From assembly GCA_018675635.1 (NCBI GenBank), contig JABGXU010000008.1, positions 195,588 through 259,587 on the forward strand: DNA of 64,000 nucleotides. The letters run 5' to 3'. This document shows, piece by piece, positions 44,978-63,602 of this stretch. The stretch is from Gammaproteobacteria bacterium (GTDB lineage: Bacteria; Pseudomonadota; Gammaproteobacteria; Poriferisulfidales; GCA-002705445). Positions within the stretch are counted from its first letter, which is position 1. Each line of letters starts with the position of its first letter. The notes under the pieces are model-generated. The model worked only from the letters and a program-made list of their open reading frames with translations, did not search any database and had not been told where the DNA came from. Position numbers and translations under genes: made by a program.

Positions 44978-44994
44978 AAAAATAATTCCTCGCT

Positions 44995-47615: not shown

Positions 47616-48625
47616 TATTTTGCATTCATTAAAGCTAATGTGGCATCTAGCATCCTATTTGAGAACCCCCACTCATTGTCATACCAGACATAAACTTTTA
47701 CTAATTTTTTTTCCATTACTTTAGTTAGGTTCGAGTCATATATTGACGAAGCTGGGTTATGATTAAAATCTGTAGAAACTAAGGGTATGTCATTAAATTC
47801 AATTATTCCTTTCATTTCATTTTTTGAAGCATTTAAAATTATTTCGTTTATTTCACTTATTGAGGTTTCTTTTTTTGTTCTAATTACTAAGTCAACAACG
47901 GACACATTTACTGTTGGAATACGAACTGCATGCCCATCAAGTTTTCCTTGTAATTCTGGTATAACCAAGCCTACGTTTTTTGCTGCCCCTGTTTTAGTAG
48001 GTATCATGGACTGAGTTGCAGCTCTAGCTCTTCTTATATCTTTATGGTTTGCATCAGTTAATCTTTGGTCATTAGTAAATGAATGAATTGTTGTTATAAG
48101 TCCATGTTCAATGCCTATATTATTATTTAAAACTTTTATAACTGGAGCAATACAATTAGTAGTGCAAGAGGCATTTGAGATAATTTGATGTTCTTTGGAA
48201 AGAATATTTTCATTGACTCCATAAACAATAGTCGCATCAACATTTTCCCCTGGAGCTGAAATTATTACTTTTTTTGCGCCATTTTTAATATGAATCAGCG
48301 TTTCTTCTTTTGAATTGAATTTTCCAGTACATTCAAAAACTACATCAACATTATATTTCCCCCAATTTATTTTACTTGGGTCTCTTTCAGACGTAATGTT
48401 AATTTTATCTCCATCAACATACATAAAATTACCTTCAGCAGTTACCTCTTTATTAAATTTCCCATGCGCAGAGTCATATTTTGTTAAATGCGCACTTACA
48501 GCATTATCTCCTACATCATTGATTGCAACTATCTGAAGATTCTTATGTTGGTTTGATTCATATAAAGCTCTGAGAATATTTCTACCAATCCTTCCGTAGC
48601 CATTTATTCCTATATTAATTGTCAT
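47615..48625 (-). CDS. gap: glyceraldehyde-3-phosphate dehydrogenase (type I)
   Basis: 336 aa; [10 protein letters not shown] and ASCTTNC active-site motifs. Confidence 0.95.
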
Positions 48626-48640
48626 GATAATTTCCTATAT

Positions 48641-50653
48641 CTATTTTTTAAGCATTAATTTAACTCGGTCTATTATATTCTTTTGTGTGAAACCAAAATA
48701 TTTTAATAACTCACCGCCAGGTGCTGATTCTCCAAAAGAATCAATACCGATAGTATCCCCATTTAATCCAACATATTTGTACCAAAATGAAGTAGACCCA
48801 GCTTCTATTGAGATCCTGTTTTTTATTTTTGCAGGCAAAACCTCTTCTTTATAATCATCATTCTGCTTCTCAAAAATTTCAGTTGATAGCATTGAAACAA
48901 CCCTAGTATTAATTCCTTCTCTCTCTAATTCTTTAGCAGCATTCATTGTTATCCCAACTTCACTTCCTGTTGCTATTAGAATTACATCTAAATTTTTTGC
49001 ATCTTTTAATACGTAAGCGCCTTTGTTAGATAAAGCTATTTGTTCGTTAGTTCTTTCTTGAAATTCACAATTTTGTCTAGACAGTATCAAACATGTTGGC
49101 CCATAATTATTCTCGATTGCATATTTCCACGCTATTGCTGCTTCTATGGTATCACATGGTCTAATTACGGTTGTATTTGGAATATCTCTTAAGCTATTTA
49201 TATGCTCTATAGCCTGATGTGTTGGACCGTCTTCACCTAAACCAATAGAATCATGCGTAAAAACAAAAATATTTTTTAAACTCATAATTGCTGACATCCG
49301 AATTGCATTTTTTGCATAGTCAGAGAATGTTAAAAAAGTTCCACCGTAAGGAATAAATCCTTTGTAAGAACTGATCCCATTCATGATTGCTGACATACCA
49401 AATTCCCTAACACCATAATTAATATAATTACCATCAAAGAACTCTTTAATATCCTTAGACCCAGACCACATTGTTAAGTTTGATGCCGCAAGATCAGCAG
49501 AACCCCCAATCATTTCTGGTAAAATTTTTGCGTATGCTTCAATAGCATTTTGTGAAGCTTTTCTAGTGGCAATATTTTCTTTCTTTTCATTGCAAGCTTT
49601 TATGTATTCTTGTGATTTTAATATCCAGTTGTCTTTTAATTCTGAAGATATTCTTCTTTCAAATTCATATGCATCTTTTGGATATCTTTCTTTATATATT
49701 TTGAAATTATTATTCCATTCATCCTCTAAATTAGAGCCTTTTTCTTTTTTGTCCCAAGATTCATAAACATCTTTAGGTATTTCAAAAGAACCATAATCCC
49801 AACCAATCTCTTTTTTTGTTAATTTTGTTTCTTTATCTCCAAGAGGAGCACCATGTGAACTTTCTTTACCTTCTTTATTTGGTGAGCCAAATCCAATTTT
49901 TGTTTTACAGCATATTAATGTTGGTTTATTTTTTGATTGAAGTGCTTTTTCTAAACTTTTTATTAATTCTTCAGAAGAGTGACCATCAACATTATTTATT
50001 ACATTCCAATTATATGACTCAAATCTTTTAGCTGTATCATCAGTAAACCAGCCGTCTACTTTTCCATCTATCGAAATTCCATTATCATCATAAAAAACAA
50101 TCAGTTTATTTAATTTTAATGTTCCCGCTAAGGAACAAACTTCATGTGAGATGCCTTCCATAAGGCAACCATCCCCAGTAAATACATATGTATGATGATT
50201 TATAATTTCTATATCTTTTTTATTAAATTGAGCTGCAAGTGTTTTTTCTGCTATTGCCATACCAACTCCATTTGATAAGCCTTGTCCTAATGGCCCTGTA
50301 GTTGTTTCAACTCCTTTAGTTACGTGAGATTCAGGATGTCCTGGAGTTTTTGAATGAAGCTGCCTAAAATTTTTGATCTCATCTAGACTTAAATCATATC
50401 CTGTAAGATGAAGAAGACTGTATAGCAACATTGACCCATGCCCATTAGATAATACAAATCTGTCTCTATTGGCCCAGTTTGGGTTGTTTGGGTTATATTT
50501 TAAATAATCGTTCCATAGCACCTCTGCTATGTCAGCCATGCCTAAAGGCATACCAGGGTGCCCAGAATTAGCTTTATCAACAGCGTCCATAGAAAGTGCT
50601 CTTATAGCATTTGCTAAATGTTTTCTAGAATTATTGTTAATTTTTGTTGCCAA
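48641..50653 (-). CDS. tkt: transketolase
   Basis: 670 aa; [13 protein letters not shown] ThDP-binding motif. Confidence 0.95.
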
Positions 50654-51280: not shown

Positions 51281-52024
51281 ATGTTAGATTATAAAGATAA
51301 AATTAGAGAAAAATATAAAAAAATACTTTTTATTCATGGTTGGGGAGTAACAGATAAGATTTGGATAAATTTTGCTAAAAAATTTTTTTATCTCGATACT
51401 TGCCACTTTCTTAATTTATATAGTTATATTGAGGGTTCCAATGGTGATCTCAAAATTGCCGCAAAAAAGGTTCTAAATGATTACGAGGATGTAGATTTAA
51501 TAGTTTCATGGTCTTTAGGTTGTTTTCTTGCAAAGGAAATAGAGAAAATAAGTAAATCTAGCACTAAAGCAATAATTTATATTTCTTATGCACCAACATT
51601 TATGAAAAGCAAAGAATGGGATTTTGGTTTTGAAAAAAATACCATTATAAAATTGAAGAAAGAATTAAAAAACAACAAAGAAAAGGCTTTAAAAAATTTT
51701 TATTTATTAATAATTGGGCAAGTAGTTAACAAAAAAAATGTATATAAGGAAATAATATCTAATATTAATGAAATGAATTATGTAAGCTTGAAAACTTTAA
51801 ACCTTGGGTTAGATATTATACAAAATTCTAATTACAAAGATTTTGCCACAAATAAAAAAATAAAAAATCTATATATATATGGTGATGACGATAATATAAC
51901 ACCTAAAAATAATATAAAATTATTAGAGCCTTTGTCTACTGTAAAGGTTTTACCTTGTTCTTCGCATATTCCTTTTCTAAGTAATAGTGACGAATTTTTT
52001 AAAATTATAAATGAGTTTATGTAA
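51281..52024 (+). CDS. bioH: pimeloyl-ACP methyl ester esterase BioH (alpha/beta hydrolase)
   Basis: ILFIHGWG and SWSLG nucleophile elbow; followed by bioC. Confidence 0.7.
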   Translation: MLDYKDKIREKYKKILFIHGWGVTDKIWINFAKKFFYLDTCHFLNLYSYIEGSNGDLKIAAKKVLNDYEDVDLIVSWSLGCFLAKEIEKISKSSTKAIIYISYAPTFMKSKEWDFGFEKNTIIKLKKELKNNKEKALKNFYLLIIGQVVNKKNVYKEIISNINEMNYVSLKTLNLGLDIIQNSNYKDFATNKKIKNLYIYGDDDNITPKNNIKLLEPLSTVKVLPCSSHIPFLSNSDEFFKIINEFM

Positions 52025-52812
52025 TGAAAAACGAAAAAAAAATTATTTCTTCTAATTATTTGGAATCTGCAATTGTTCAAAAAGAGGTAATAAGTAGATT
52101 AATGCAAAGACTCTCTCTTATTAATATATCTCCTAGAAAGATTATAGATTTAGGAGCAGGAGTAGGACTAAGCACTGAATATTTATTAAATCAGTATAGT
52201 AAATCAGAGCTTTATATGTTGGATAATTCTTTAGCAGCCCTAAAAAATAAAATTTTTAGTAAAGGTAATGTGTTTTCAATTTGTGGTGATTTTAAAAGTA
52301 TTCCATTAGAAAGTAATACGTTTGATTTTGTTTTTTCATCTTCTGCATTACATTGGGAATTAGATATAAATTTATCTTTTAAAGAAATATATCGTATTCT
52401 AAAACCCGGAGGACTATTTTTGTTTTCAACATATGGTCCAGATACATTGATAGAACTTAGGTCGTCATGGGCACAAATTGACAACAAGAAGCACGTTAAT
52501 GATTTTTATGATATGCATGATATAGGTGATTTAATGTTAAATTTAAACTTTTTGGATACAGTTGTCGATGCTGAAAAAATAGTAATTCAATACAATAACG
52601 TAATTCAACTCCAGAAAGATCTAAAAAATATTGGTTCGAAAGTTGTGCATGATGATAATAAAAATCAAAAGTTATATGGTAATAATCGCATGTTAGCTAT
52701 GTATCAAGAATATGAAAAATTTAGAGCAAAAAATGGCAATTTACCAGCAACTTACGAAGTAATTTATGGTTCTGCCTGGAAAAAATTTGATGTTATGAAA
52801 TTAGTTGATTAA
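52024..52812 (+). CDS. bioC: malonyl-ACP O-methyltransferase BioC
   Basis: 262 aa SAM-MTase; IIDLGAGVGLST motif I; ATG overlaps the bioH stop. Confidence 0.75.
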   Translation: MKNEKKIISSNYLESAIVQKEVISRLMQRLSLINISPRKIIDLGAGVGLSTEYLLNQYSKSELYMLDNSLAALKNKIFSKGNVFSICGDFKSIPLESNTFDFVFSSSALHWELDINLSFKEIYRILKPGGLFLFSTYGPDTLIELRSSWAQIDNKKHVNDFYDMHDIGDLMLNLNFLDTVVDAEKIVIQYNNVIQLQKDLKNIGSKVVHDDNKNQKLYGNNRMLAMYQEYEKFRAKNGNLPATYEVIYGSAWKKFDVMKLVD

Positions 52813-53540
52813 ATATTAGCAATTTCGTAAAGTTTTTTTTTGTTAAGTATAGATATTAAATTATTTTTAATCGATATAACATCTTGTTCGTAAAATTTTT
52901 TTATAAGCCTACTTATAGTTTCTTTACTTACACCTAAATAATTACCTATATCAGTTTTTGTCATTATAAGTTTATATTGGTCAGGTGCAATCCCTCTATC
53001 TATATATCTTTTAGTTAAACTAATAATAAATCGAGCAAATTTTTGTTGAGAATCACACTTTGCCATCATTAATAGCATGTCATGATCACTAGATATAACA
53101 TTGCTAATAAGATTCAGAAGTTGTTTTTGTAAATCCGGCATTTTTACGCACAAAATATTAAGATCTGTGATTGGTAATTCACAGATAGATGTTGGTTCAA
53201 GAGTAGATGCTGAACAACTATGAATCATATTATCTAGCCCATCTAAACCAAGTAGCTCGCCTGGCAAATGAAAACCAAGAATTTGTTCGTCACCATTTTT
53301 TGCTGTCGTAAAAGTTTTTATTGAACCTGATTTTACCGCAAAGATGCTACCTGAGGATTCACCTTGTTTAAAAATTGCTCTATTTTTTGATTTAATTTTT
53401 TCTGTTTTTACAATTCTATCAAGTTTTTCAAGACCTTCAATATCTAAGCATCTTGGAAGACATAAATTTTTTAAAGAACAATTTTCACAACGAACTTTAA
53501 GATCGCGAAATTTAATTTTTGTAGATGTAACATTATTCAT
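52809..53540 (-). CDS. fnr: FNR (oxygen-sensing Crp/Fnr-family regulator)
   Basis: N-terminal C-x2-C-x5-C (RCENCSLKNLCLPRC) plus an internal Cys; the E-SR HTH motif (ETISRLIKKF) aligns along its length with E. coli FNR. Confidence 0.9.
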   Translation of the reverse strand: MNNVTSTKIKFRDLKVRCENCSLKNLCLPRCLDIEGLEKLDRIVKTEKIKSKNRAIFKQGESSGSIFAVKSGSIKTFTTAKNGDEQILGFHLPGELLGLDGLDNMIHSCSASTLEPTSICELPITDLNILCVKMPDLQKQLLNLISNVISSDHDMLLMMAKCDSQQKFARFIISLTKRYIDRGIAPDQYKLIMTKTDIGNYLGVSKETISRLIKKFYEQDVISIKNNLISILNKKKLYEIANI

Positions 53541-53595: not shown

Positions 53596-53609
53596 TTGAT
53601 TTATATCAA
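53596..53609. promoter_or_regulatory. perfect FNR box TTGAT-TTAT-ATCAA
   Basis: Exact TTGAT-N4-ATCAA palindrome in the fnr / GST-operon divergent intergenic region. Centred about 67 nt upstream of the GST ATG and about 62 nt upstream of the fnr ATG. Confidence 0.6.
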
Positions 53610-53669
53610 TAAAACCAATATGAATTTAAGTTATATTTCAAAAAATATATAAATTGAGGAAATAAGGGA

Positions 53670-54269
53670 ATGTTTTTTAAAAAGAAAAAAGAAAAAGATA
53701 AAATAAAACTATATTGTGCAGCCGAGAATCCAGGCTCTTATTCTGCCATTTTTTTATCTTCATATAGACAAATAGATATAGATGTTGAGTGGGTAGATCC
53801 AGCCGAGGGCTCAGAATATAGCGCTTTAATTGGTACGAATACCTTGCCTTCATTAATAGATGGTAAATTTGCAATATGTCGAATATTCCCTGTTTTAACA
53901 TATTTAAATATTATTGGGTCTAAACCAAAAATAGAACCAAGAAAAGCACGTATCTTGGCAAAAGAGAAATACTATATATCTTTAATAGAAAAAGTTTTAT
54001 GGGTAATTAATATTGATAGTGAAAAAGAAAAACTATTATTTTTATTAGATCAGCAGTTGGAAAAGTACAAATTTATCGCTGGTGATGAATTAACTCTAGC
54101 AGATATATATTTATTTGGATTTACTATGATTTCAAATAATGATTTAGTTAAATATAAAAATATTGGTGTTTGGTTAAAAAAAATGTTTTCACTTGTGCCT
54201 AATCAAAATACAGAGTCAATGATTGATGGTGAATTTTATAAACTTCTTAAAGAAAGGAAAATAGCATGA
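53670..54269 (+). CDS. glutathione S-transferase family protein
   Basis: N-terminal thioredoxin-like KIKLYC...TLPSLIDGKFAICRIFPVLTYL and C-terminal GDELTLADIYLF GST_C segment. Confidence 0.65.
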   Translation: MFFKKKKEKDKIKLYCAAENPGSYSAIFLSSYRQIDIDVEWVDPAEGSEYSALIGTNTLPSLIDGKFAICRIFPVLTYLNIIGSKPKIEPRKARILAKEKYYISLIEKVLWVINIDSEKEKLLFLLDQQLEKYKFIAGDELTLADIYLFGFTMISNNDLVKYKNIGVWLKKMFSLVPNQNTESMIDGEFYKLLKERKIA

Positions 54270-55009
54270 AAGAATTATTTGATGATATTGCTATATCAGT
54301 TGATGCGTATGGAGCTGATGGAGATATGAAAAAAACGCAATATGTTCTAGATTTGATTGGTTCAGTATCAAATCCGGAAACTTACAAATGTATTTTAGCA
54401 GCTAGCGAGCAGGGAATGGAAATGAACTGTTACGCTTTAGAAAATTTAAATGACTCACAATTTGATGAAATGAAGGGCGAAACATTAGCTCTAAGAGAAT
54501 CAGATTTTATAATTAGTGGATCAGAAGCAATTGTGGCTTTTATAGATGCAAGAGGGCTAGGATATTCATTGGAGCTTAAAAACGCTCAACTTGCTGCGAT
54601 ACAAAATTATTGGGTAGATATTGCAAATGTTGCTTTCTCCGATTCTGTTTGCAAACTTATATATGGCAATGTTGGTAAACGAAAAGACAAACATACTTTA
54701 ACAAAAGATTCATTAGAAAAAATAAATTTATATTTAGATGCTCTGGATAAGCAACTTAAAAATAATAAATATATAGTTTGTAACAAATATACTTTCGCTG
54801 ATCTTCATTGGACTGCCTATATTCATTTTATATTAATTAGTGATTATGAGGATTTGATAGATAATAAAAAGAATATTCAGGATTGGCTCCAAAGAATTAA
54901 ATCAAGAAAAAGTCAATGTGGTCAAGAAATCGTTGCTTATGATAATTTGCCCAACAAAACTGATATAGAAAACAAAAAATTATCTTCTGTAAGAATAGGT
55001 GATTTTTAG
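54266..55009 (+). CDS. glutathione S-transferase-like protein (second, divergent)
   Basis: GETLALRESDFIISGSEAIVAFID and YIVCNKYTFADLHW GST-like segments; ATGA overlap with the previous GST. Confidence 0.55.
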   Translation: MKELFDDIAISVDAYGADGDMKKTQYVLDLIGSVSNPETYKCILAASEQGMEMNCYALENLNDSQFDEMKGETLALRESDFIISGSEAIVAFIDARGLGYSLELKNAQLAAIQNYWVDIANVAFSDSVCKLIYGNVGKRKDKHTLTKDSLEKINLYLDALDKQLKNNKYIVCNKYTFADLHWTAYIHFILISDYEDLIDNKKNIQDWLQRIKSRKSQCGQEIVAYDNLPNKTDIENKKLSSVRIGDF

Positions 55010-55052
55010 AAACAAGCATTAATTATTGCTAATAAAAGAGAGAAATAAATAA

Positions 55053-56240
55053 ATGAAAAAGTTTTTGATTAATATTAGATATTTTTTAACACCATTGTTA
55101 ATATTTTTAACGGCTATAAGTATAATTATTGGAGGAACATATTGTTGGCTTGGATTATCATTATTAGTTTCATCAATTCTTATTGATTGGGTATCAAGCA
55201 AATTAAGTTTTTGTAATGCACAAGCAGCTGGTACTGATGAAAATGGTGAAAACTATGGCATAGAAAGTTTGTTAAAAACTATGATGTGGTTTCAGTATCC
55301 TGTGTTTGTAGTCATACAATTAGCATTAGCATATAGAGTTTATAGCTATATAAATCATATTGATTTTGAGGTTATAAGTCTTTATGGGTTACCAATACAA
55401 ATGGGTACAACTGGAGCAGAATTAGTAGGTGCAGCTATTTCTTCTGGTATTATTCTTGGTCTTGGAATTATGTTTGGCCATGAGCTTGCTCATACAAAAG
55501 GCCCTACATTCATATTATCAAGATGGATGATGGCGCTAACTGGAATAGCGCATTTTTGTTATGCGCATGTTTATAACCACCATCTAGAACTTGGGTGTGA
55601 AGATGATCCTGCGACTGCACCTAGGGGAAGAACTATTTATTCTCATTGGTTACTTTCTCATTTTGGACAGTCAAGATTCCTTTACGTAATGGAGCAACAT
55701 CGTCTCCAGAGATTAGGAAAACCATTTTTGTCTTTTAGCAATAGATGGCTAAGAGGATATGCAATGAGTTTGCCTACTATATTTTTATTTTGGTTTATTG
55801 GAGGGTGGGTAGGATTACTTATAATGTTGATAACATGGATTATTTCTTCATTTGAATTAGAGGTTTTAAATTATTTAGAGCACTATGGATTAATTAGAGA
55901 GACAGGTTCTCCAATTGACTATAGGCATTCTTGGGATGTTCACAGCTCTCCTTGGACTCAATGGGGTTTTATAGAAATTGGTTTACAGGCCGATCATCAT
56001 GATAGAGGTGAAACTCACTTCTGGGAATTAAATAAATGTGATGCACCTGATACTGGTCTAGGTTATTACGCCATGTTATCAATGATAATAGTGCCGCCAG
56101 TTTGGGAATCTTTTATAAAACCACATCTAGCAAAATGGGACGAAGAAAGAGCTTCTGAGGGCGAGAAAATTATTGCAGGAAAGATGAATTACAAAGCAGG
56201 TTGGACAGACATGCCGTTATGCGAAGGGAGTGAAAAATGA
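55053..56240 (+). CDS. AlkB/XylM-like integral-membrane di-iron hydroxylase (fatty acid desaturase superfamily)
   Basis: His boxes HELAHTK, HVYNHH, NYLEHYGL and LQADHHD arranged as in alkane-1-monooxygenases. The third box is divergent. Confidence 0.65.
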   Translation: MKKFLINIRYFLTPLLIFLTAISIIIGGTYCWLGLSLLVSSILIDWVSSKLSFCNAQAAGTDENGENYGIESLLKTMMWFQYPVFVVIQLALAYRVYSYINHIDFEVISLYGLPIQMGTTGAELVGAAISSGIILGLGIMFGHELAHTKGPTFILSRWMMALTGIAHFCYAHVYNHHLELGCEDDPATAPRGRTIYSHWLLSHFGQSRFLYVMEQHRLQRLGKPFLSFSNRWLRGYAMSLPTIFLFWFIGGWVGLLIMLITWIISSFELEVLNYLEHYGLIRETGSPIDYRHSWDVHSSPWTQWGFIEIGLQADHHDRGETHFWELNKCDAPDTGLGYYAMLSMIIVPPVWESFIKPHLAKWDEERASEGEKIIAGKMNYKAGWTDMPLCEGSEK

Positions 56241-56443
56241 GAGTAAAAATTGCTTTATTTGTAATATTAATATTTACATATTCAATATATTATTTGTTAG
56301 AAAGTATAGGAGTGAATGAGCATCATGATGACCTTGTTTGGGCTTTTTTAACTTCGGTTACCTTTTTATTAACACTATTAATTGATGTTTATTTGTTTTT
56401 TGCTATAGCAAAAGAAGATGCATATAAATGGGGTATTGACTGA
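56237..56443 (+). CDS. hypothetical 68-aa two-TM membrane protein coupled (ATGA) to the hydroxylase
   Basis: Two hydrophobic helices; the start overlaps the hydroxylase stop. Confidence 0.45.
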   Translation: MRVKIALFVILIFTYSIYYLLESIGVNEHHDDLVWAFLTSVTFLLTLLIDVYLFFAIAKEDAYKWGID

Positions 56444-56606: not shown

Positions 56607-57083
56607 ATGATTGCAAAGAAAATCGATGGTTGTGAAGAATATATAATTAGTGGCAATAACTCATTATCTTTTCGAGACAGCGTTATATTTATATCTTTAA
56701 TAAGCTTTATTTCTTTATCTATTGCAATAGGATTCTCGTATAAAGGTTATTGGGTAATACTCCCATTTGCTGGAGTGGAGATGATTTTATTAGCAGTTAT
56801 GCTATTATATTGCTGCCATAATAATTCAATGTGCGAGAAGATTCAGATTTTTGGGGATAAAGTCAATATATCTTCAAAATATAGGAAAAATAAAGGATTT
56901 TTTGAGGTAAATAAATATTGGTCATCTATAGTTTTGAGTAAACCGAAGCTTAGAGGTCATCCTCATAGGTTGTTTATAAGATATAAAGGAAGGGAAATGG
57001 AAATCGGAGTTATGTTGGAAGACAAAGAAAGATTAAAGCTTGCAGCTATGCTAAACACTTCACTTAAAAAAAGGAATAAATAA
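56607..57083 (+). CDS. DUF2244-like membrane protein associated with cytochrome oxidase clusters
   Basis: 158 aa with two TM helices followed by a basic soluble tail, immediately upstream of coxB. Confidence 0.5.
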   Translation: MIAKKIDGCEEYIISGNNSLSFRDSVIFISLISFISLSIAIGFSYKGYWVILPFAGVEMILLAVMLLYCCHNNSMCEKIQIFGDKVNISSKYRKNKGFFEVNKYWSSIVLSKPKLRGHPHRLFIRYKGREMEIGVMLEDKERLKLAAMLNTSLKKRNK

Positions 57084-57883
57084 TGCGCTATTTAAACAAA
57101 TTTTTAATTTTTGTGATGATTAATATTTCGGTATTACCTGCTCAAGCTGGCTGGCTGGATCTAAATATGCCTAAGGGCGTTACTGATATTAGTAATGAAG
57201 TTTTTGGTCTACATATGTTAATACTTTGGATTTGCGTTGTTATCGGAGTTATTGTTTTTGGAGCAATGTTTTGGTCTATATTAATGCATCGAAAATCAAA
57301 AGGAGTGACACCAGCAACTTGGCATGAAAGTACAAAATTAGAATTTATATGGACTATTGTTCCTTTTATAATTTTAATTGGAATGGCTGTTCCTGCTACC
57401 AAAACATTAATAAAGATGTACGATCATAGTGATTCTGAAATACATATTAAAATTACTGGTTATCAATGGTTGTGGCAATACGAATATTTAAATACAGGCA
57501 TTTCTTATTATAGTAAATTATCTACTCCATATAGCGAAATTTATAATAAGAAAAGCAAGAACGTTAATTATTTACAACAAGTGGACAATGAACTTGTTGT
57601 TCCAATTAATAAAAAAATAAGATTTTTGTTAACTTCTAATGATGTTTTGCATGCATGGTGGGTTCCAGACTTAGCATTAAAGAGGGATGCAATGCCAGGG
57701 TACATAAATGAGATGTCTACAATAATAAATAAACCAGGAATCTATAGAGGTAGTTGTGCTGAATTATGCGGAAGACATCATGGTTTTATGCCAATAGTTA
57801 TTAAAGCTGTTACAGAGGATGAATATGAAAAATGGTTAACTGCTAGAAAGGTTAAGACATCTGGGGTTGCCAAAATTAAATAA
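57083..57883 (+). CDS. coxB: cytochrome c oxidase subunit II
   Basis: CuA site HAWWVPDL...CAELCGRHHGFM. Confidence 0.95.
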   Translation: MRYLNKFLIFVMINISVLPAQAGWLDLNMPKGVTDISNEVFGLHMLILWICVVIGVIVFGAMFWSILMHRKSKGVTPATWHESTKLEFIWTIVPFIILIGMAVPATKTLIKMYDHSDSEIHIKITGYQWLWQYEYLNTGISYYSKLSTPYSEIYNKKSKNVNYLQQVDNELVVPINKKIRFLLTSNDVLHAWWVPDLALKRDAMPGYINEMSTIINKPGIYRGSCAELCGRHHGFMPIVIKAVTEDEYEKWLTARKVKTSGVAKIK

Positions 57884-57897
57884 AAAGGAGAAATATT

Positions 57898-59469
57898 ATG
57901 AGTTCGGTTGTAAAAGATACGCATCATGATGATCATCCATCAGGTATTATGAGATGGATAAGAACTACAAACCATAAGGATATTGGAACATTATATTTAT
58001 GGTTTGCTATGATAATGTTTTTTATAGGCGGCTTCATGGCATTAATTATCCGTTCAGAACTTTTTCAACCTGGACTTCAATTTGTTGACCCTCAGTTCTT
58101 TAATTCTATGACGACAATGCACGCGCTTGTTATGCTTTTTGGAGTTGTTATGCCTGCATTTACAGGATTAGCTAACTGGTTAATTCCTATGATGGTTGGT
58201 GGCCCAGATATGGCTTTACCTAGAATGAATAATTGGAGCTTCTGGATTTTACCATTTGCATTTTCAATGCTTCTTTCAACATTATGGATGGATGGTGGTG
58301 CACCTGCTGGAGGATGGACTTTATATCCTCCATTAAGCTTACAAACAGGTGATGCGTTTCCATTTTTAATTTTTTCAATTCATTTTATGGGGCTTTCATC
58401 AATCATGGGCGCTATAAATGTTATAGCTACTATTTTAAATATGAGAGCACCAGGCATGACATTAATGAAAATGCCACTTTTTGTTTGGACTTGGTTAATT
58501 ACTGCATTCTTACTTATAGCTGTAATGCCTGTATTAGCTGGTGGAGTAACAATGCTTCTCACAGATAAGTTTTTTGGAACTAGTTTTTTTAATGCGGCTG
58601 GTGGTGGAGATCCTGTTATGTTCCAGCATATTTTTTGGTTTTTTGGCCATCCTGAAGTTTATATTTTAATTCTTCCTTCTTTCGGAGTAGTTTCCAGCAT
58701 TATTCCAACTTTTGCTCGAAAACCTTTGTTTGGATATAGCTCAATGGTCTATGCGACAGCATCTATAGCTTTCTTGTCATTTATTGTCTGGGCTCATCAT
58801 ATGTTCACAGTTGGGATTCCTCTTGCAGGGGAATTATTTTTTATGTTCGCAACCATGTTAATTGCTGTTCCTACAGGAGTTAAAGTATTTAATTGGGTGA
58901 CGACTATGTGGAAAGGAGCGATGACATTTGAAACACCAATGTTATTTGCAATAGCGTTTATAGTGATGTTTACTATCGGGGGATTTTCAGGATTAATGTT
59001 GGCTATAACTCCTGCAGACTTTCAATATCATGACACGTATTTTGTAGTTGCTCATTTTCACTATGTATTAGTTCCAGGATCTATATTTGCAATTATGGCA
59101 GCATGTTATTATTGGCTCCCTAAATGGACTGGGAATATGTACCCTGAAACTTTAGGAAAAATACATTTTTGGCTTTCAACTTTTTTTGTAAATTTAACTT
59201 TTTTCCCAATGCATTTTGTAGGACTTGCAGGAATGCCAAGAAGGATTCCGGACTATTCACTTCAATTTGCAGATTATAATATGATTGCTAGCATTGGTGC
59301 TTTTGGTTTTGGTATTGCACAAATATTATTTTTATATATTGTAATTAAGACAATTAAGGGTGGTAAAAAAGCTACAGACCAAGTTTGGGATGGCGCTGAC
59401 GGTTTGGAGTGGACATTACCTTCTCCACCTCCTTATCACTCTTTTAATACGCCGCCTGTAGTAAAATAA
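57898..59469 (+). CDS. coxA: cytochrome c oxidase subunit I
   Basis: 523 aa; 12 TM; WFFGHPEVYILILP heme-copper motif. Confidence 0.95.
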   Translation: MSSVVKDTHHDDHPSGIMRWIRTTNHKDIGTLYLWFAMIMFFIGGFMALIIRSELFQPGLQFVDPQFFNSMTTMHALVMLFGVVMPAFTGLANWLIPMMVGGPDMALPRMNNWSFWILPFAFSMLLSTLWMDGGAPAGGWTLYPPLSLQTGDAFPFLIFSIHFMGLSSIMGAINVIATILNMRAPGMTLMKMPLFVWTWLITAFLLIAVMPVLAGGVTMLLTDKFFGTSFFNAAGGGDPVMFQHIFWFFGHPEVYILILPSFGVVSSIIPTFARKPLFGYSSMVYATASIAFLSFIVWAHHMFTVGIPLAGELFFMFATMLIAVPTGVKVFNWVTTMWKGAMTFETPMLFAIAFIVMFTIGGFSGLMLAITPADFQYHDTYFVVAHFHYVLVPGSIFAIMAACYYWLPKWTGNMYPETLGKIHFWLSTFFVNLTFFPMHFVGLAGMPRRIPDYSLQFADYNMIASIGAFGFGIAQILFLYIVIKTIKGGKKATDQVWDGADGLEWTLPSPPPYHSFNTPPVVK

Positions 59470-59477
59470 TGCTAAAT

Positions 59478-59594
59478 ATGGGTCAGGAGAATTTTTTGGA
59501 AATAAAAAAGAAAATAAAAATAACAACAATAATTTTAGCTATAGTAGCTTTAACTATATATGTAAGTTTTTATTTCATTGTATCTAATAGGTAA
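59478..59594 (+). CDS. possible 38-aa single-TM peptide between coxA and ctaG (MGQENFLEIKKKIKITTIILAIVALTIYVSFYFIVSNR)
   Basis: Hand-translated intergenic ORF ending 7 nt before ctaG; weak RBS. Confidence 0.3.
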   Translation: MGQENFLEIKKKIKITTIILAIVALTIYVSFYFIVSNR

Positions 59595-59600
59595 ATAAAA

Positions 59601-60143
59601 ATGAAAGACATGAAGATGAACGTAAAAACAGCAAAGAAACTAATTATTGTATGTTTTGGTATGTTTTTATTTTCTTTTGCTTTAGTGCCATTATATAACG
59701 TTATATGTGATGTAACAGGTTTAAACGGAAACACCTCTAATTTAAGAGAAAAAACTGAACAACATTCAGAAAAGATTAGTAATGAAAAATTAAATATACA
59801 GTTTATTTCTAACGAAATAAATAAAGACAAAATAGATTTTAAGCCATCGGAATTTGAAATGACAATTTCTCCTGGCAAAGTATATAGCACTTATTTTTTA
59901 GTTAGGAATAAATCTAGTTCAATTATAGAAGGTCAGGCAATACCAAGCGTTTCTCCTAATGAGGCATCAATATATTTAAATAAGATTAAGTGTTTCTGTT
60001 TTGAAAAACAGATTATCGAACCAGGAGAAGTTGTTAAACTGCCATTATATTTTTCTGTAAGCGAGAAATTACCTGTAAGAATAAAAACATTAACTTTATC
60101 ATATACATTTTTTGATTTAGTTAAAGTTTCTAAAAAAGATTAA
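59601..60143 (+). CDS. ctaG: cytochrome c oxidase assembly protein CtaG/Cox11
   Basis: N-terminal TM plus KIKCFCFEKQ copper-binding CFCF motif. Confidence 0.9.
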   Translation: MKDMKMNVKTAKKLIIVCFGMFLFSFALVPLYNVICDVTGLNGNTSNLREKTEQHSEKISNEKLNIQFISNEINKDKIDFKPSEFEMTISPGKVYSTYFLVRNKSSSIIEGQAIPSVSPNEASIYLNKIKCFCFEKQIIEPGEVVKLPLYFSVSEKLPVRIKTLTLSYTFFDLVKVSKKD

Positions 60144-60167
60144 TTAGAATAAAGGGGATAAATAAAA

Positions 60168-61037
60168 ATGTCAGAGTCAGGAAGTTATTACATACCTCAT
60201 GGAAGTAATTGGCCAATCATAGCATCAATAGGTGTTTGCACTACAATGGTTGGAGGTTCAATTTTATTGAATGGAAGCGATATAGGTAAATATATTTTAT
60301 TTATTGGACTAGCTATTGTTATTTATATGATCGTCGGATGGTTTAGTACAGTAGTATCTGAAAGTGAAAGGGGAATTTACGATTCACAAGTTGATTCATC
60401 TTTTAGATGGGGAATGGTTTGGTTTATTTTCTCAGAAGTAATGTTTTTTGCTGTTTTTTTTGGCGCACTTTTTTATGTTAGATCATATTCTTTGCCTTGG
60501 CTTGGTGGTGAGGGAACAGGCTTAGCAACAAACACTTTTTTATGGCCTAATTATGAAGCTGTTTGGCCTCAGACAGCCAATGGTCCAGGCGAAATTGGTG
60601 GTAAATTTGAACATATGAGTGCATGGGGACTTCCAGCACTTAATACGGCTATATTATTAACTAGTGGTTTAACATTAACATGGGCTCATCATGCTTTAAA
60701 AGAAATGAAAAGAGGTCAATTAATTGCTGGTTTATTCTTAACTGTAGCTCTTGGTTCGGTTTTTATGATTTTTCAGGCGATTGAATATGGGCATGCTTTT
60801 ACTGAGTTAAACTTAAATTTAGGTAGCGGCATATATGGGTCAACTTTTTTTATGTTAACTGGATTTCATGGTTTTCATGTAACTATCGGAACAATTATGT
60901 TGTGTGTAATTTTAGGAAGGTCAATTCGTGGTCATTTTAATCCAAAAAATCATTTTGCATTTGAAGCGGTTGCTTGGTACTGGCATTTTGTTGATGTAGT
61001 TTGGTTAGGGCTTTTTATATTTGTATATTGGATTTAG
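60168..61037 (+). CDS. coxC: cytochrome c oxidase subunit III
   Basis: 289 aa; 7 TM; GFHGFHVTIGT motif. Confidence 0.95.
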   Translation: MSESGSYYIPHGSNWPIIASIGVCTTMVGGSILLNGSDIGKYILFIGLAIVIYMIVGWFSTVVSESERGIYDSQVDSSFRWGMVWFIFSEVMFFAVFFGALFYVRSYSLPWLGGEGTGLATNTFLWPNYEAVWPQTANGPGEIGGKFEHMSAWGLPALNTAILLTSGLTLTWAHHALKEMKRGQLIAGLFLTVALGSVFMIFQAIEYGHAFTELNLNLGSGIYGSTFFMLTGFHGFHVTIGTIMLCVILGRSIRGHFNPKNHFAFEAVAWYWHFVDVVWLGLFIFVYWI

Positions 61038-61244
61038 TTAGTTCTTTATGCCGTGCGGCTGGATATAACCATACTTATACATAATTATTAATATAATAAA
61101 TAATAGGATAGATAACCCTATTCTTATTTTTAGTGCATTTACAACTCTATTTTTGTTACCCTTATCTTTTATTAAGAAAAATAATGAACCAAATAAACTT
61201 ATTATGATTAATAGAAACAAGAATATAAATATAATTTTAAACAT
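61038..61244 (-). CDS. DUF2909-like twin-TM small protein (typical between coxC and surf1)
   Basis: 68 aa, two hydrophobic helices, in the conserved slot but on the opposite strand. Confidence 0.45.
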   Translation of the reverse strand: MFKIIFIFLFLLIIISLFGSLFFLIKDKGNKNRVVNALKIRIGLSILLFIILIIMYKYGYIQPHGIKN

Positions 61245-61259
61245 TAATAATAAATTTTT

Positions 61260-61994
61260 TTGTTTATGAAACTTAAATTACTTTCTAGCATTATTTTTCT
61301 ATCATGTATATCCTTATTTATTAGTTTAGGATTTTGGCAAATAGATAGAGCAAATCAAAAAGATAGTATAGTTGAATTATATAAAGATAGGCAGTTATCT
61401 CCAGTAAAGTCATTACAGACATTTAAAAATAGAGATATAAAAAAGCTACATTTTATAAATTGTAAAATAAAAGGACGATACTTAAATAAAATATTTCTTA
61501 TAGACAATAAGATCAAGAATAATCAACTAGGATTTAATGTAGTAACACCATTTCAGCTTGAGAAAGGGGGTGAAATAATAATTGTAGACAGAGGCTGGCT
61601 GCCAATTAAAGGTGCGCGGTCTGAAATAATTAATAATTTTAATTATTTAAATAATCAAAAAATTGATAAAAATGCACAGGAAATTAATGGGTATATTTAC
61701 CCAAAAGATGAGAGTTATACTATTGGAGAGATATCAACAAATAAAGAATGGCCAAGATTATTGCAAGCAATTGATTTTCAAGAAATTAATAATGATATTT
61801 CAGAAAAAGATTTATTGCTGAGTGGAGTAATATTTAGACTTGGTAAAAATAATGAATTTGGTTTTAATAGGGAGTGGGAAATAGTTTATATGGATAGCAA
61901 TAAGCATCTAGGATATGCATTTCAATGGTTTAGTTTAGCACTTGTATTTCTAGTTATGACAATAATATTTTTTTTAAGAAATAAAGATGGATAA
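61260..61994 (+). CDS. surf1: SURF1 family cytochrome oxidase biogenesis protein
   Basis: Two flanking TM helices; VVTPFQLEKGGEIIIVDRGWLP motif. Confidence 0.85.
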   Translation: MFMKLKLLSSIIFLSCISLFISLGFWQIDRANQKDSIVELYKDRQLSPVKSLQTFKNRDIKKLHFINCKIKGRYLNKIFLIDNKIKNNQLGFNVVTPFQLEKGGEIIIVDRGWLPIKGARSEIINNFNYLNNQKIDKNAQEINGYIYPKDESYTIGEISTNKEWPRLLQAIDFQEINNDISEKDLLLSGVIFRLGKNNEFGFNREWEIVYMDSNKHLGYAFQWFSLALVFLVMTIIFFLRNKDG

Positions 61995-62559
61995 AAAAAC
62001 AGATTATTATCTTCAAGTAAAAACAAAATTATATTTGTTACTAATTATACTGTCATTTATAGGCCCACTTATACTTGCAACAATAATGTATAAATATAGT
62101 GATGCTCTTCCTGTTGCCCCACCAAAATCATATGGAAGTCTTATTAATCCTGTAATAACAATTAGTAAAAAAGATGAATTTAATAACATATTATCTATAA
62201 AGAAATGGACGTTAATGTATGTATATGGGAGTAATTTATGTGATCTTTCATGTGAAGCTACTTTATATATGATGCATCAGGTTAGGGAATCATTAGGTAA
62301 AGACATGCAAAGAGTATCTAATATTATTGTTACAAATACTGATTTTAATAATAATGATAATAAAAGGATTATTAAAAAATATAAAAATTTAAAACAATTA
62401 GATTTAATAAATAAAAATTTATTTAAAGTATTAAAGCATAATCATCTTTATATGGTTGATCCTTTAGGTAACATATTTATGTATTACGATAAAAATTTTA
62501 AAGCTAAAGGCTTAAAAAAAGATATTAAAAAAATATTAAAAATATCAAGAATTGGTTGA
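61987..62559 (+). CDS. membrane-anchored hypothetical protein with CxxxC motif (Sco-like?) in cox cluster
   Basis: N-terminal TM. KKWTLMYVYGSNLCDLSCEATLYMMHQVRESL resembles the Sco/SenC W.LVYFG..CP..CP...L pattern. Confidence 0.4.
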   Translation: MDKKTDYYLQVKTKLYLLLIILSFIGPLILATIMYKYSDALPVAPPKSYGSLINPVITISKKDEFNNILSIKKWTLMYVYGSNLCDLSCEATLYMMHQVRESLGKDMQRVSNIIVTNTDFNNNDNKRIIKKYKNLKQLDLINKNLFKVLKHNHLYMVDPLGNIFMYYDKNFKAKGLKKDIKKILKISRIG

Positions 62560-62568
62560 TAAAATTTT

Positions 62569-63594: not shown

Positions 63595-63602
63595 AATTTA
63601 AA

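What the first reader, a model, noticed from the sequence alone, without database searches (positions are those of the whole stretch)
53670..56443. Tandem GST-like genes + AlkB/XylM-like membrane hydroxylase + coupled 2-TM peptide operon without a visible electron donor
Four co-oriented, overlapping (ATGA) genes: two GST-fold proteins, an integral-membrane di-iron hydroxylase with AlkB-type His boxes (HELAHTK, HVYNHH, NYLEHYGL, LQADHHD), and a 68-aa membrane peptide. Alkane hydroxylases need rubredoxin/rubredoxin reductase or a ferredoxin/reductase pair, and none is adjacent. The only candidate reductase in the window is the orphan PyrK-like gene about 46 kb upstream. GST plus membrane hydroxylase hints at oxidation and glutathione conjugation of a hydrophobic substrate, or a lipid-modification pathway. 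The upstream perfect FNR box implies oxygen-dependent control.
Basis: partly seen in the sequence, partly recalled or inferred. Interest (0 to 1): 0.65.

Follow-up and report, generated by a model that had tools for sequence, protein, structure and literature searches.

The report
Hypoxia-controlled AlkB-like oxygenase with GST partners
The four genes are real and form the conserved core of an uncharacterised membrane iron-oxygenase system of marine sulfur-oxidising bacteria, which databases label "alkane hydroxylase" although it has a changed iron site, its own GST-like and small-peptide partners, and oxygen-sensor control.

Summary
Observation confirmed. GST-like a (53670-54269), GST-like b (54266-55009), an AlkB-fold di-iron protein (55053-56240) and a 2-TM 68-aa peptide (56237-56443) are intact and co-oriented. 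Two ATGA overlaps link them. They lie behind the only perfect FNR box in 64 kb and a divergent fnr gene.

Among 80 related loci, the peptide and GST-like genes co-occur with the hydroxylase in 47 and are both absent in 31. The refutation test "not co-conserved" therefore fails.

The hydroxylase forms its own clade, 27-30% identical to AlkB, XylM and the reductase-fused AlkB. In all 81 members, the first His of AlkB's third box is replaced by an invariant Gln (QxxHH).

The missing electron donor is explained by relatives. Fuller versions of the cluster carry a XylA-type [2Fe-2S]-FAD reductase (41% identical to XylA), a small ferredoxin, a truncated globin, a third GST-like protein and FixLJ-like regulators. 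Some also carry FadL or OmpW channels and NorQ/NorD-like chaperones. No donor is encoded in this window.

Best reading: a XylMA-like, low-oxygen-induced monooxygenase acting on a hydrophobic substrate, with thiol-dependent or carrier partners and the donor encoded elsewhere. The substrate is unknown. I found no description of the system in the literature. I rate it a new variant of a known kind, interest about 0.6.

The parts
52809..53540 (-). fnr: FNR-type O2-sensing regulator, divergent from the operon
   Evidence: NCBIfam PRK11161 Fnr at 1.1e-71, 241 bits, above the cutoff of 228. Pfam cNMP_binding plus HTH_Crp_2. The N-terminal C18-x2-C21-x5-C27 and C120 match the E. coli FNR cluster ligands (read from the sequence). 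An fnr gene lies within 5 kb of the hydroxylase in 20 of 80 related loci.
53596..53609 (.). Perfect FNR box TTGATTTATATCAA in the 129-nt fnr/GST-a intergenic region
   Evidence: It is the only perfect match in 64 kb. Its centre is 67.5 nt upstream of the GST-a ATG and 62.5 nt upstream of the fnr ATG. It could therefore serve either promoter or both. Related boxes occur in relatives.
53633..53638 (+). Candidate -10 hexamer TATATT, spaced as in a class II FNR promoter
   Evidence: Read. With the FNR site centred at 53602.5, a site position of -41.5 puts the transcription start near 53644 and the -10 at about 53632-53637. This is inference only; the consensus promoter scan did not single it out.
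53670..54269 (+). GST-fold protein, subfamily a (199 aa), first of the tandem pair
   Evidence: Pfam GST_C at 6.7e-7. It aligns to delta-class GSTs over residues 16-179. Orthologs hold the same position in group A loci, at 1e-22 to 1e-31. The Glu-Ser dyad of the glutathione site reads Arg-Ile here (alignment).
54266..55009 (+). GST-fold protein, subfamily b (247 aa), translationally coupled to a
   Evidence: Pfam GST_C at 1.1e-10 and GST_C_3 at 1.4e-9. Phi-class GSTs in the PDB match at 1.7e-12. Only 106 homologs were found in 5.8e9 proteins, all at least 39% identical. Invariant residues are T39, K41 and C42, plus an N-terminal YG-x-x-G-x-x-KKTQ motif. It is sister to subfamily c, which sits between ferredoxin and reductase in relatives.
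55053..56240 (+). AlkB-fold integral-membrane di-iron oxygenase (395 aa), distinct clade with a QxxHH third box
   Evidence: H143/H147, H172/H176/H177, H315/H316, Q312, D317, E320 and H322 are invariant in all 81 sequences. H277 is His in 80 of the 81.
56237..56443 (+). 68-aa two-TM peptide, translationally coupled to the oxygenase
   Evidence: TM spans are 2-26 and 31-60. Homologs follow the hydroxylase or the reductase in 48 of 80 loci. The loop motif HH-x-x-P-x-W-A-x-G-T is conserved. There are only 5 clusters among 1.84e9 representatives, all 67-75 aa, with no fusions.

Best explanation
The four genes are the minimal core of a conserved, so far uncharacterised oxygenase system. It is found in marine sulfur-oxidising and methylotrophic Gammaproteobacteria.

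Shown:
- The 395-aa protein has the AlkB fold and a histidine-rich di-iron site.
- It always travels with a dedicated 2-TM peptide and dedicated GST-fold proteins.
- In fuller versions of the cluster it is flanked by a XylA-type [2Fe-2S]/FAD/NAD(H) reductase, a small Fe-S ferredoxin and a truncated globin.
- The clusters sit next to O2-sensing regulators. These are FNR here, and FixL/FixJ-like proteins elsewhere.

Inferred mechanism:
- When O2 is low, FNR binds the box at 53596-53609 and switches on GST-a, GST-b, the oxygenase and the peptide.
- NAD(P)H electrons reach the cytoplasmic di-iron centre through a XylA-like reductase, with or without ferredoxin. In this organism that donor is encoded outside the 64-kb window.
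- The enzyme activates O2 and hydroxylates or epoxidises a small hydrophobic substrate partitioned in the membrane. In relatives the substrate is imported through OmpW or FadL channels.
- The peptide is a stoichiometric membrane subunit.
- The cytoplasmic GST-a/GST-b heterodimer takes over the oxygenated product, either by thiol chemistry or as a carrier.

The system works like xylene monooxygenase XylMA rather than like rubredoxin-dependent AlkB. The substrate is not identified.
For: Fold and family.

Co-conservation:
- Of 80 non-redundant related loci, 48 have the peptide, 48 have at least one GST-like gene, 47 have both, and 31 have neither.
- The GST-b family is narrow, with 106 hits in 5.8e9 proteins.
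- The peptide family is narrow, with 5 representative clusters.

Donor in relatives:
- Methylophaga sulfidovorans has hydroxylase-globin-Fer4_19-GST-reductase-peptide-FadL.
- Other loci have ACAD-FixL-FixJ-globin-ferredoxin-GSTc-reductase-hydroxylase-peptide-GSTa-GSTb.
- The reductase is 41% identical to XylA, E 3e-84 to 5e-91.
- Genomes with the window-type module also hold a reductase-bearing paralogous module. Examples are OZ244982 (L012/L071), CBDCTA (L016/L065), CBDCUI (L022/L062) and CBDHFH (L025/L083).

Outer-membrane channels for hydrophobic compounds:
- OmpW is present in 15 group A and A' loci (17 locus ids, two of them re-fetches of the same places).
- FadL-like proteins are present in L005, L032, L091 and L097.
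- This parallels AlkL and XylN. OmpW and FadL-type genes also sit in the Polaromonas and pWW0 clusters.

O2-sensor control:
- The window has a perfect FNR box.
- In group A', boxes lie 83-148 nt upstream of the hydroxylase.
- In group A, the CTGAT-N4-ATCAG palindrome is conserved.
- The alternative regulators have FixL and FixJ as their best NCBIfam hits, 1e-63 and 3e-60.

Other support:
- The organism can make glutathione, with gshB at 4492-5487.
- The GST-like proteins have no TM span, and I saw no signal peptide on reading the sequences. They are therefore cytoplasmic, on the side of the AlkB active site according to the AlkB structure paper PMC10110569.
Against: - No donor is visible in the window. 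I could not inspect the rest of this genome.
- No alcohol or aldehyde dehydrogenase accompanies the module in any architecture. A catabolic route is therefore not evident.
- The hosts are largely autotrophs.
- The canonical Glu-Ser glutathione-binding dyad is absent from the GST-like proteins. The AF2 model of GST-b was too poor in the N-domain to examine the site.
- One of AlkB's nine His ligands is replaced by Gln, so the chemistry may differ from hydroxylation.
- Low-oxygen induction of an O2-consuming catabolic enzyme is unusual.
- The FNR box lies in a shared divergent region and could serve fnr autoregulation only.
- OmpW adjacency in group A could simply reflect clustering of FNR-regulon genes.
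Confidence: 0.5

Rival explanations
1. Endogenous lipid or quinone modification. The enzyme would desaturate or hydroxylate a membrane lipid, fatty acyl chain or isoprenoid quinone of the cell itself. It would be up-regulated, and supplied with O2 by the globin, when O2 becomes limiting for an essential O2-dependent biosynthetic step. The GST-fold proteins would act as lipid-binding carriers.
For: - The QxxHH third box is the hallmark of front-end fatty-acid desaturases (PMC5215697) and is invariant here.
- FNR or FixLJ-type control plus a globin fits compensation for low O2.
- There are no downstream catabolic genes.
- The hosts are autotrophs.
- The partner-less paralog subclade sits beside a FabA-like gene.
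- The atypical glutathione site of the GST-like proteins fits a ligand-binding role.
Against: - Sequence and fold are AlkB/XylM-like, with an NYxEHYGL motif, and not desaturase-like. No SCD1 or Scs7p hit appears in the PDB by sequence or by fold.
- FadL and OmpW channels recur inside or beside the clusters.
- The FabA adjacency is confined to one group of related genomes and may be inherited synteny.
Confidence: 0.2
2. Nitrosative or hypoxic stress module. The membrane di-iron protein would reduce or dioxygenate NO (or O2) rather than hydroxylate carbon. Globin plus ferredoxin plus reductase would act as a split flavohaemoglobin. NorQ/NorD-like proteins would load iron. The GST-like proteins would handle S-nitroso or iron-nitrosyl thiol species.
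For: - NorQ/NorD-like AAA/VWA pairs lie beside the cluster in Methylophaga, L034, L045, L097 and L098.
- One or two truncated globins are present, one of them with a signal peptide.
- A nitronate-monooxygenase-family gene is in the same clusters.
- The regulators are of the FNR and FixLJ types that control denitrification genes.
- In group A and in the window the module lies between fnr and a terminal oxidase operon.
- The metal site is remodelled, with Q312 and new invariant D317, E320 and H322.
Against: - No AlkB-family member is known to do this chemistry.
- NorQ/NorD-like genes are absent from most loci and from the window. In autotrophs they could be Rubisco-activase CbbQ/O.
- Hydrophobic-compound channels and a XylA-type reductase fit a monooxygenase.
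- The NMO-family protein's best NCBIfam hit is the enoyl-ACP reductase FabK.
Confidence: 0.12
3. Ordinary alkane 1-monooxygenase (AlkB), as annotated by JGI/KEGG K00496. It would initiate n-alkane catabolism, with rubredoxin and reductase encoded elsewhere.
For: - Source annotations read 'alkane 1-monooxygenase'.
- The fold is AlkB.
- The closest outgroup in my tree is the reductase-ferredoxin-fused AlkB type, reported active on alkanes in PMC8918992.
Against: - Identity to AlkB is only 27-30% and the protein sits in a separate clade.
- It carries eight of the nine His ligands that are reported invariant and indispensable in AlkB (PMC10110569).
- The partner in relatives is XylA-like, not rubredoxin.
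- No alkJ/alkH-type dehydrogenases or acyl-CoA ligase are adjacent.
- A SUP05 isolate tested in PMC7368058 used none of the alkanes offered. Whether that isolate has this gene is unknown.
Confidence: 0.08
4. One reading: the orphan PyrK-like flavo-iron-sulfur protein at 8728-9594 is the electron donor of the hydroxylase.
For: It has the right cofactor set, [2Fe-2S] plus FAD and NAD domains. It has no adjacent PyrD-B partner (ORF list).
Against: - It lies 45 kb away, directly after pyrB and a dihydroorotase-like gene.
- It shows no significant similarity to the family's own reductase (E 0.57).
- No PyrK-like gene appears beside the hydroxylase in any of 80 related loci.
Confidence: 0.05

Closest known systems
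Xylene monooxygenase XylM/XylA of the TOL plasmid pWW0 (with XylN, a FadL-type channel)
   Same: - The hydroxylase is a membrane di-iron protein of the same superfamily, 27% identical.
- In relatives the reductase is a XylA-type Fer2-FAD-NAD protein, 41% identical.
- A FadL-type outer-membrane protein is in the operon in some relatives.
   Different: - It forms a separate clade.
- The third His box is QADHH, against HINHH in XylM.
- There are no XylB/XylC dehydrogenases.
- Extra obligatory partners are present: a 2-TM peptide and two or three GST-fold proteins. A ferredoxin and a globin are often present too.
- Control is by O2 sensors rather than by XylR/XylS-type regulators.
- In the window itself the reductase is not adjacent.
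Alkane 1-monooxygenase AlkB (P. putida GPo1; Fontimonas thermophila structures 8f6t and 8sbb)
   Same: - The fold matches (TM 0.72-0.75).
- The motifs HELxH(T)K, HxxxHH and NYxEHYG are shared.
- Its outer-membrane channel AlkL belongs to the OmpW family (from my own knowledge), and OmpW-family genes lie beside the hydroxylase in group A and A' relatives.
   Different: - Identity is about 28%.
- It has eight of the nine His ligands.
- There is no rubredoxin or rubredoxin reductase, and no alk catabolic genes.
- The hosts are mainly sulfur-oxidising autotrophs.
Ferredoxin-reductase/ferredoxin-fused AlkB (ferr_ferrR_AlkB; here Polaromonas naphthalenivorans pPNAP01 WP_011797842)
   Same: - It is the nearest outgroup in the NJ tree, 30% identical.
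- It uses a XylA-like Fer2-FAD-NAD donor. Its N-terminal part is 38% identical to the family's reductase.
   Different: - There the donor is fused. The third box is HSHHH.
- Its cluster has GMC oxidoreductase, acyl-CoA ligase, aldehyde dehydrogenase and OmpW, a clear alkane route.
- It has no GST-like protein, peptide or globin.
Isoprene (iso) and styrene (sty) catabolic clusters with paired glutathione S-transferases IsoI/IsoJ and StyI/StyJ (from my own knowledge)
   Same: An oxygenase with its own reductase and ferredoxin is encoded together with two GST genes. This suggests epoxide or electrophile capture by glutathione.
   Different: - Those oxygenases are soluble di-iron or flavin enzymes.
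- Their clusters carry the dehydrogenase and CoA-transferase that complete the pathway.
- Their GSTs have canonical glutathione sites.
- No homology was tested here.
Front-end fatty-acid desaturases (third box QXXHH)
   Same: Gln replaces the first His of the third histidine box (PMC5215697).
   Different: No detectable sequence or fold similarity beyond the shared PF00487 superfamily. Those enzymes use cytochrome b5.

Membership tests
AlkB alkane 1-monooxygenase | AlkB fold, PF00487, six-TM topology with a cytoplasmic His-rich site | tested here: met
   Pfam at 2e-24. PDB 8f6t at E 9e-25. Foldseek finds only FtAlkB, TM 0.72-0.75.
AlkB alkane 1-monooxygenase | Nine invariant His ligands in four motifs (HELxHK, EHxxGHH, NYxEHYG, LQRHSDHH) | tested here: not met
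   Eight are present. The first His of the last motif is Gln312 in all 81 family sequences. The nine His are described as invariant and indispensable in PMC10110569.
AlkB alkane 1-monooxygenase | Rubredoxin plus rubredoxin reductase as electron donors | tested here: not met
   There is no homolog in the window. Relatives carry a XylA-type reductase and a Fer4_19 ferredoxin instead. Genes elsewhere in this genome could not be checked.
AlkB alkane 1-monooxygenase | Association with alcohol or aldehyde dehydrogenase and acyl-CoA synthetase genes | tested here: not met
   None was found among conserved neighbours in 80 loci or in the window.
AlkB alkane 1-monooxygenase | Terminal hydroxylation of n-alkanes | not testable with these tools
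   Requires an enzyme assay.
XylM/XylA-type monooxygenase | XylM-like hydroxylase clustering with XylM | tested here: not met
   Identity is 27-28% and the protein forms a separate clade in the NJ tree.
XylM/XylA-type monooxygenase | Adjacent Fer2-FAD_binding_6-NAD_binding_1 reductase (XylA) | tested here: inconclusive
   It is absent from the window. It is present within 5 kb in 15 of 80 related loci and is 41% identical to XylA.
XylM/XylA-type monooxygenase | Benzyl-alcohol and benzaldehyde dehydrogenases in the operon | tested here: not met
   compared with pWW0.
Canonical cytosolic glutathione S-transferase | Two-domain GST fold | tested here: met
   GST_C Pfam hits. Near full-length alignments to solved GSTs. 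The AF2 model is confident only for the C-domain.
Canonical cytosolic glutathione S-transferase | Glutathione-site residues: Glu-Ser dyad before helix 3 and a catalytic Ser, Cys or Tyr | tested here: inconclusive
   The dyad reads R-I in GST-a of the window and G-S, G-x or G-T in subfamilies b and c. The cis-Pro position is kept. A conserved T-x-K-C motif at helix 1 could supply a nucleophile.
Canonical cytosolic glutathione S-transferase | Glutathione available in the cell | tested here: met
   gshB at 4492-5487, with GSH-S_ATP at 5.9e-60. gshA was not looked for.
FNR regulon member | FNR regulator with [4Fe-4S] Cys ligands, and a TTGAT-N4-ATCAA site at promoter distance | tested here: met
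   Boxes are conserved in relatives. The site is shared with the divergent fnr promoter.
FNR regulon member | O2-dependent transcription | not testable with these tools
   Needs transcript data.

The most novel reading that the evidence does not exclude
The clade is not a hydrocarbon hydroxylase. On this reading it is a hypoxia- or NO-responsive membrane di-iron redox enzyme with a remodelled metal site (8 His plus Gln312, with new invariant Asp317, Glu320 and His322). The 2-TM peptide and GST-fold proteins would be obligatory subunits. A split flavohaemoglobin-like chain (reductase, ferredoxin, truncated globin) would feed it, and NorQ/NorD-type chaperones would load it with iron. It would act on NO or O2, or on a sulfur- or nitro-containing small molecule, at the oxic-anoxic interface.
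Probability: 0.15. Interest if true: 0.85.

Novelty: new variant of a known kind. Interest (0 to 1): 0.6.

Why it matters
- Genes of this clade are widespread in marine metagenomes, including Tara Oceans, hydrothermal plumes, lucinid and sponge symbionts and OMZ-type sulfur oxidisers.
- They are routinely named alkane 1-monooxygenase, K00496. If they do something else, surveys that count alkB would overstate the hydrocarbon-degrading potential of sulfur-oxidising bacteria.
- Mechanistically this would be the first AlkB-family enzyme with dedicated GST-fold and small-membrane-peptide partners, a Gln in the metal site, a globin in the operon, and control by FNR or FixLJ-like oxygen sensors.
- One cultured carrier exists, Methylophaga sulfidovorans, so the question can be tested directly.

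Tried and rejected
1. FNR half-site enrichment. Boxes with one mismatch occur at chance frequency in the window. Only the single perfect box is meaningful.
2. Intrinsic terminators. The only two hits lie inside the hydroxylase coding region at 55533-55566 and match chance expectation. I ignored them. No terminator separates the peptide gene from DUF2244-coxBA, so read-through cannot be excluded.
3. AF2 model of GST-b. The N-terminal domain has pLDDT below 50. I did not use it for fold search or site analysis.
4. Rosetta-stone search for fusions of the small peptide. Five representative clusters were found, all 67-75 aa, with no fusion.
5. Literature. Ten full-text searches combined AlkB, XylM or alkane monooxygenase with GST, truncated haemoglobin, SUP05, Thiodiazotropha, Thioglobus, Methylophaga, QXXHH or K00496. 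None found a description of this clade or gene set.
6. PyrK-like protein as donor. Rejected as unsupported.
7. CrtW/CrtZ, SCD1 or Scs7p-type enzymes. There are no sequence or fold hits.
8. Plasmid search. It returned only distant XylM and AlkB homologs of at most 35% identity.
9. FabA and MerR neighbours of the partner-less paralogs were noted. I did not use them, because they occur in closely related genomes only.
10. I could not place the window taxonomically beyond 'uncultured low-GC (about 29%) marine gammaproteobacterium'.

Full report
**What is in the sequence**

Four co-oriented ORFs lie on the + strand:
- GST-like a, 53670-54269, 199 aa.
- GST-like b, 54266-55009, 247 aa.
- A 395-aa membrane protein, 55053-56240.
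- A 68-aa peptide, 56237-56443.

The a/b and hydroxylase/peptide junctions are ATGA overlaps. The b/hydroxylase junction is a 43-nt gap. All four starts have SD-like purine runs.

Upstream and divergent lies fnr, 52809-53540 on the minus strand. It matches NCBIfam Fnr at 1.1e-71, above the curated cutoff. It has a C-x2-C-x5-C motif plus a central Cys, as in E. coli FNR (read).

The 129-nt intergenic region holds TTGATTTATATCAA at 53596-53609. This is the only perfect FNR box in 64 kb, and boxes with one mismatch occur at chance level. Its centre is 67.5 nt from the GST-a ATG. A TATATT at 53633-53638 would fit a class II FNR promoter, but that is inference. The box is equally close to the fnr start, so autoregulation is an alternative or additional role.

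Downstream, after 163 nt with no terminator, come DUF2244 and the aa3-type cox cluster.

**Identity of the proteins**

The 395-aa protein:
- It hits PF00487 at 2e-24.
- Among solved structures it hits only AlkB, 8f6t at 9e-25 and 8sbb at 1.5e-21.
- An AF2 model (pLDDT 79, pTM 0.82) matches only FtAlkB in the PDB (TM 0.72-0.75).

Both GST-like proteins hit GST_C. They align to solved delta- and phi-class GSTs over most of their length.

The peptide has two hydrophobic spans.

**The hydroxylase is its own clade**
- Against XylM of pWW0, XylM-like proteins of Alteromonas and pNL1, a Rhodococcus AlkB and the reductase-fused AlkB-like protein of Polaromonas, identity is 27-30%. Family members are 56-70% identical to the window protein and form one clade.
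- The His motifs are HELAHTK, AHVYNHH and NYLEHYGL. The last box is QADHH. The residue aligned with the first His of AlkB's HSDHH, XylM's HINHH and Polaromonas's HSHHH is Gln312.
- Q312 is invariant in all 81 family sequences. So are the clade-specific D317, E320 and H322.
- The AlkB structure paper reports nine His ligands that are invariant and indispensable (PMC10110569). QXXHH is the typical third box of front-end desaturases (PMC5215697).
- The metal site is therefore remodelled. The protein fails one defining feature of AlkB.

**Neighbourhood conservation**

A scan of one genome per species returned 353 related places. I examined the best 80, plus contigs from metagenomes.

Hosts are named as follows:
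- Uncultured Thiotrichales and Piscirickettsiaceae.
- Ca. Thiodiazotropha, the lucinid symbionts.
- Chromatiaceae, including Thiohalocapsa and Halochromatium.
- Arenicellales.
- Ca. Porisulfidus.
- Methylophaga sulfidovorans, the only named isolate.

Genomes often hold two or three paralogs.

Mapping with phmmer gives these counts for the 80 loci:

| Feature within 5 kb of the hydroxylase | Loci |
|---|---|
| Small peptide | 48 |
| At least one GST-like gene | 48 |
| Both peptide and GST-like gene | 47 |
| Only one of the two | 2 (one truncated contig, one weak hit) |
| Neither (a partner-less paralog subclade) | 31 |

They are tightly co-conserved.

The architectures are:
- **Group A:** fnr(-) | GSTa GSTb HYD pep, followed by Yip1-ccoNOQP. 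This is the window type, except that the window has DUF2244-coxBA after it.
- **Group A':** OmpW HYD pep fnr(-) GSTa GSTb.
- **Group B:** HYD pep GSTa GSTb plus a 70-aa HTH protein. It is often preceded by ACAD, a FixL-like kinase, a FixJ-like regulator, globin, Fer4_19 ferredoxin, GSTc and a reductase.
- **Group C:** HYD, sometimes globin, ferredoxin, GSTc, reductase, pep. Some loci add a FadL-like porin, a second secreted globin, SCO4226-like and NMO-family proteins, and divergent NorQ/NorD-like genes.

The GST-like proteins form three dedicated subfamilies, a, b and c. Subfamily b has only 106 detectable relatives in 5.8 billion proteins. The peptide has five clusters among 1.84 billion representatives, with no fusions.

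**The 'missing' electron donor**
- The window encodes no homolog of XylA, rubredoxin, rubredoxin reductase, the family ferredoxin, globin, OmpW, FadL, NorQ/D, ACAD or FixLJ.
- In relatives the reductase next to the hydroxylase has Fer2, FAD_binding_6 and NAD_binding_1 domains. It is 41% identical to XylA, E 3e-84 to 5e-91, and 38% identical to the N-terminal part of the Polaromonas fusion protein.
- A review of AlkB donors recognises rubredoxin-based, rubredoxin-fused and ferredoxin/reductase-fused types and does not mention GSTs (PMC8918992).
- In 33 of the 47 loci with both partners, no reductase lies within 5 kb.
- Genomes with a group A module usually also hold a group C module that has the reductase. 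A donor encoded in trans is therefore the simplest reading for the window. I could not inspect the rest of this genome.
- The PyrK-like gene at 8728-9594 is real. It sits after pyrB and a dihydroorotase-like gene, and it is not related to the family's reductase.

**Regulation**
- In group A', FNR-type boxes lie 83-148 nt upstream of the hydroxylase. There fnr is convergent, so these boxes are not in its own promoter. A perfect box also lies at the fnr 5' end.
- In group A, the fnr/GSTa intergenic region carries a conserved symmetric variant, CTGAT-N4-ATCAG, often twice.
- In groups B and C the adjacent regulators have FixL and FixJ as their best NCBIfam hits, below the curated cutoffs.
- Two different oxygen-sensor systems are thus linked to the same module. 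Truncated globins are often present, and in group A a hemerythrin and the cbb3 oxidase are nearby. This points to expression at low oxygen.

**Mechanism**

Shown:
- AlkB fold with a remodelled His/Gln di-iron site.
- Obligatory co-occurrence with a 2-TM peptide and GST-fold proteins.
- XylA-type reductase, ferredoxin and globin in fuller clusters.
- Recurrent OmpW or FadL channels.
- Adjacency to O2-sensor regulators.
- A gshB gene in the window.

Inferred:
- An FNR-activated operon.
- NAD(P)H, then reductase (with or without ferredoxin), then the di-iron centre.
- O2-dependent oxygenation of a hydrophobic substrate.
- The peptide as a membrane subunit.
- A cytoplasmic GST-a/b pair that handles the product.

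The GST-like proteins lack the canonical Glu-Ser glutathione dyad and instead carry a conserved T-x-K-C motif. Glutathione conjugation is therefore only one possibility. A carrier or docking role is equally open.

No dehydrogenases follow the module anywhere. A classical catabolic pathway is therefore not apparent.

I put 0.5 on the XylMA-like monooxygenase model. The rivals are endogenous lipid or quinone modification at 0.2, an NO/O2-stress redox function at 0.12, and a classical alkane hydroxylase at 0.08. The PyrK-like donor idea gets 0.05; it concerns only the electron source, not what the system does.

**Novelty**

Ten full-text searches found no description of this clade or gene set. 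It is a new variant of a known kind, an AlkB/XylM-superfamily oxygenase. The differences are new partner proteins, an altered metal site and oxygen-sensor control. It is currently annotated as alkB or fatty acid desaturase.

Noticed in passing
window 8728-9594 (+), with 6423-7409 and 7420-8697: A PyrK-like protein (DHODB_Fe-S_bind at 7e-15, weak FAD and NAD domains) lies directly after pyrB and a dihydroorotase-like amidohydrolase. No PyrD-B catalytic subunit is next to it; the next genes look YggS-like and ProC-like. An orphan PyrK in a pyr operon is unexplained.
   Followed up: partly
window 4492-5487 (+): Glutathione synthetase gshB (GSH-S_N plus GSH-S_ATP, 5.9e-60). The organism can therefore make glutathione. 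gshA was not looked for.
   Followed up: partly
window 56607-64000 (+): A complete aa3-type oxidase assembly cluster follows the operon: DUF2244, coxB, coxA, ctaG, coxC, a DUF2909 gene on the minus strand, SURF1, a thioredoxin-like protein, ctaA and ctaB. In the closest relatives the same position is held by Yip1-ccoNOQP (cbb3). The module thus always sits between fnr and a terminal oxidase operon, but the oxidase type differs.
   Followed up: partly
L010-L018 and L021, fnr/GST-a intergenic regions: A symmetric variant of the FNR box, CTGAT-N4-ATCAG, is conserved and often present twice. This suggests a regulator paralog with altered half-site preference.
   Followed up: partly
L048-L061 and further loci among L063-L087; L090: The partner-less paralog subclade of the hydroxylase (31 of 80 loci) has a divergent 316-aa MerR-family regulator. 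FabA-like, rhodanese (UPF0176) and TatD genes lie upstream. It may have a different, possibly lipid-related, role.
   Followed up: no
L005 12041-12523; L097 15417-15902; L045 13687-14214: A second truncated globin in the fuller clusters carries an N-terminal signal peptide, so it is a secreted or periplasmic globin. It lies next to a FadL-like porin.
   Followed up: no
L005 3616-6514 (-); L097 6728-9665 (-); L045 14281-16464 (-); L034 20540-21193: NorQ/NorD-like AAA(MoxR)/VWA gene pairs are divergent from or adjacent to the hydroxylase cluster in several unrelated genomes. They may be iron-insertion chaperones for the His-rich di-iron site.
   Followed up: partly
L032, L034, L038, L039, L045, L097, L098: An Rv1679/FadE16-like acyl-CoA-dehydrogenase-family gene is always placed directly before the FixL-like kinase and FixJ-like regulator of the cluster. 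Its role is unknown.
   Followed up: no
window 56237-56443 and homologs: The small peptide has a conserved His-His pair in the loop between its two TM helices (motif HH-x-x-P-x-W-A-x-G-T). By the positive-inside rule the loop is predicted periplasmic, so it is unlikely to supply the missing di-iron ligand. Its function is unexplained.
   Followed up: partly
window 19013-19088 (-): The only RNA gene detected in the 64 kb is a tRNA-Phe (GAA). There are no other Rfam matches.
   Followed up: yes
window 43955-50653 (-) and 51281-52812 (+): A tkt-gap-pgk-pyk-fba block lies on the minus strand, and overlapping bioH-like and bioC-like genes lie just upstream of fnr. This is ordinary housekeeping context. 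The window is about 29% GC throughout, with no compositional island at the operon.
   Followed up: partly
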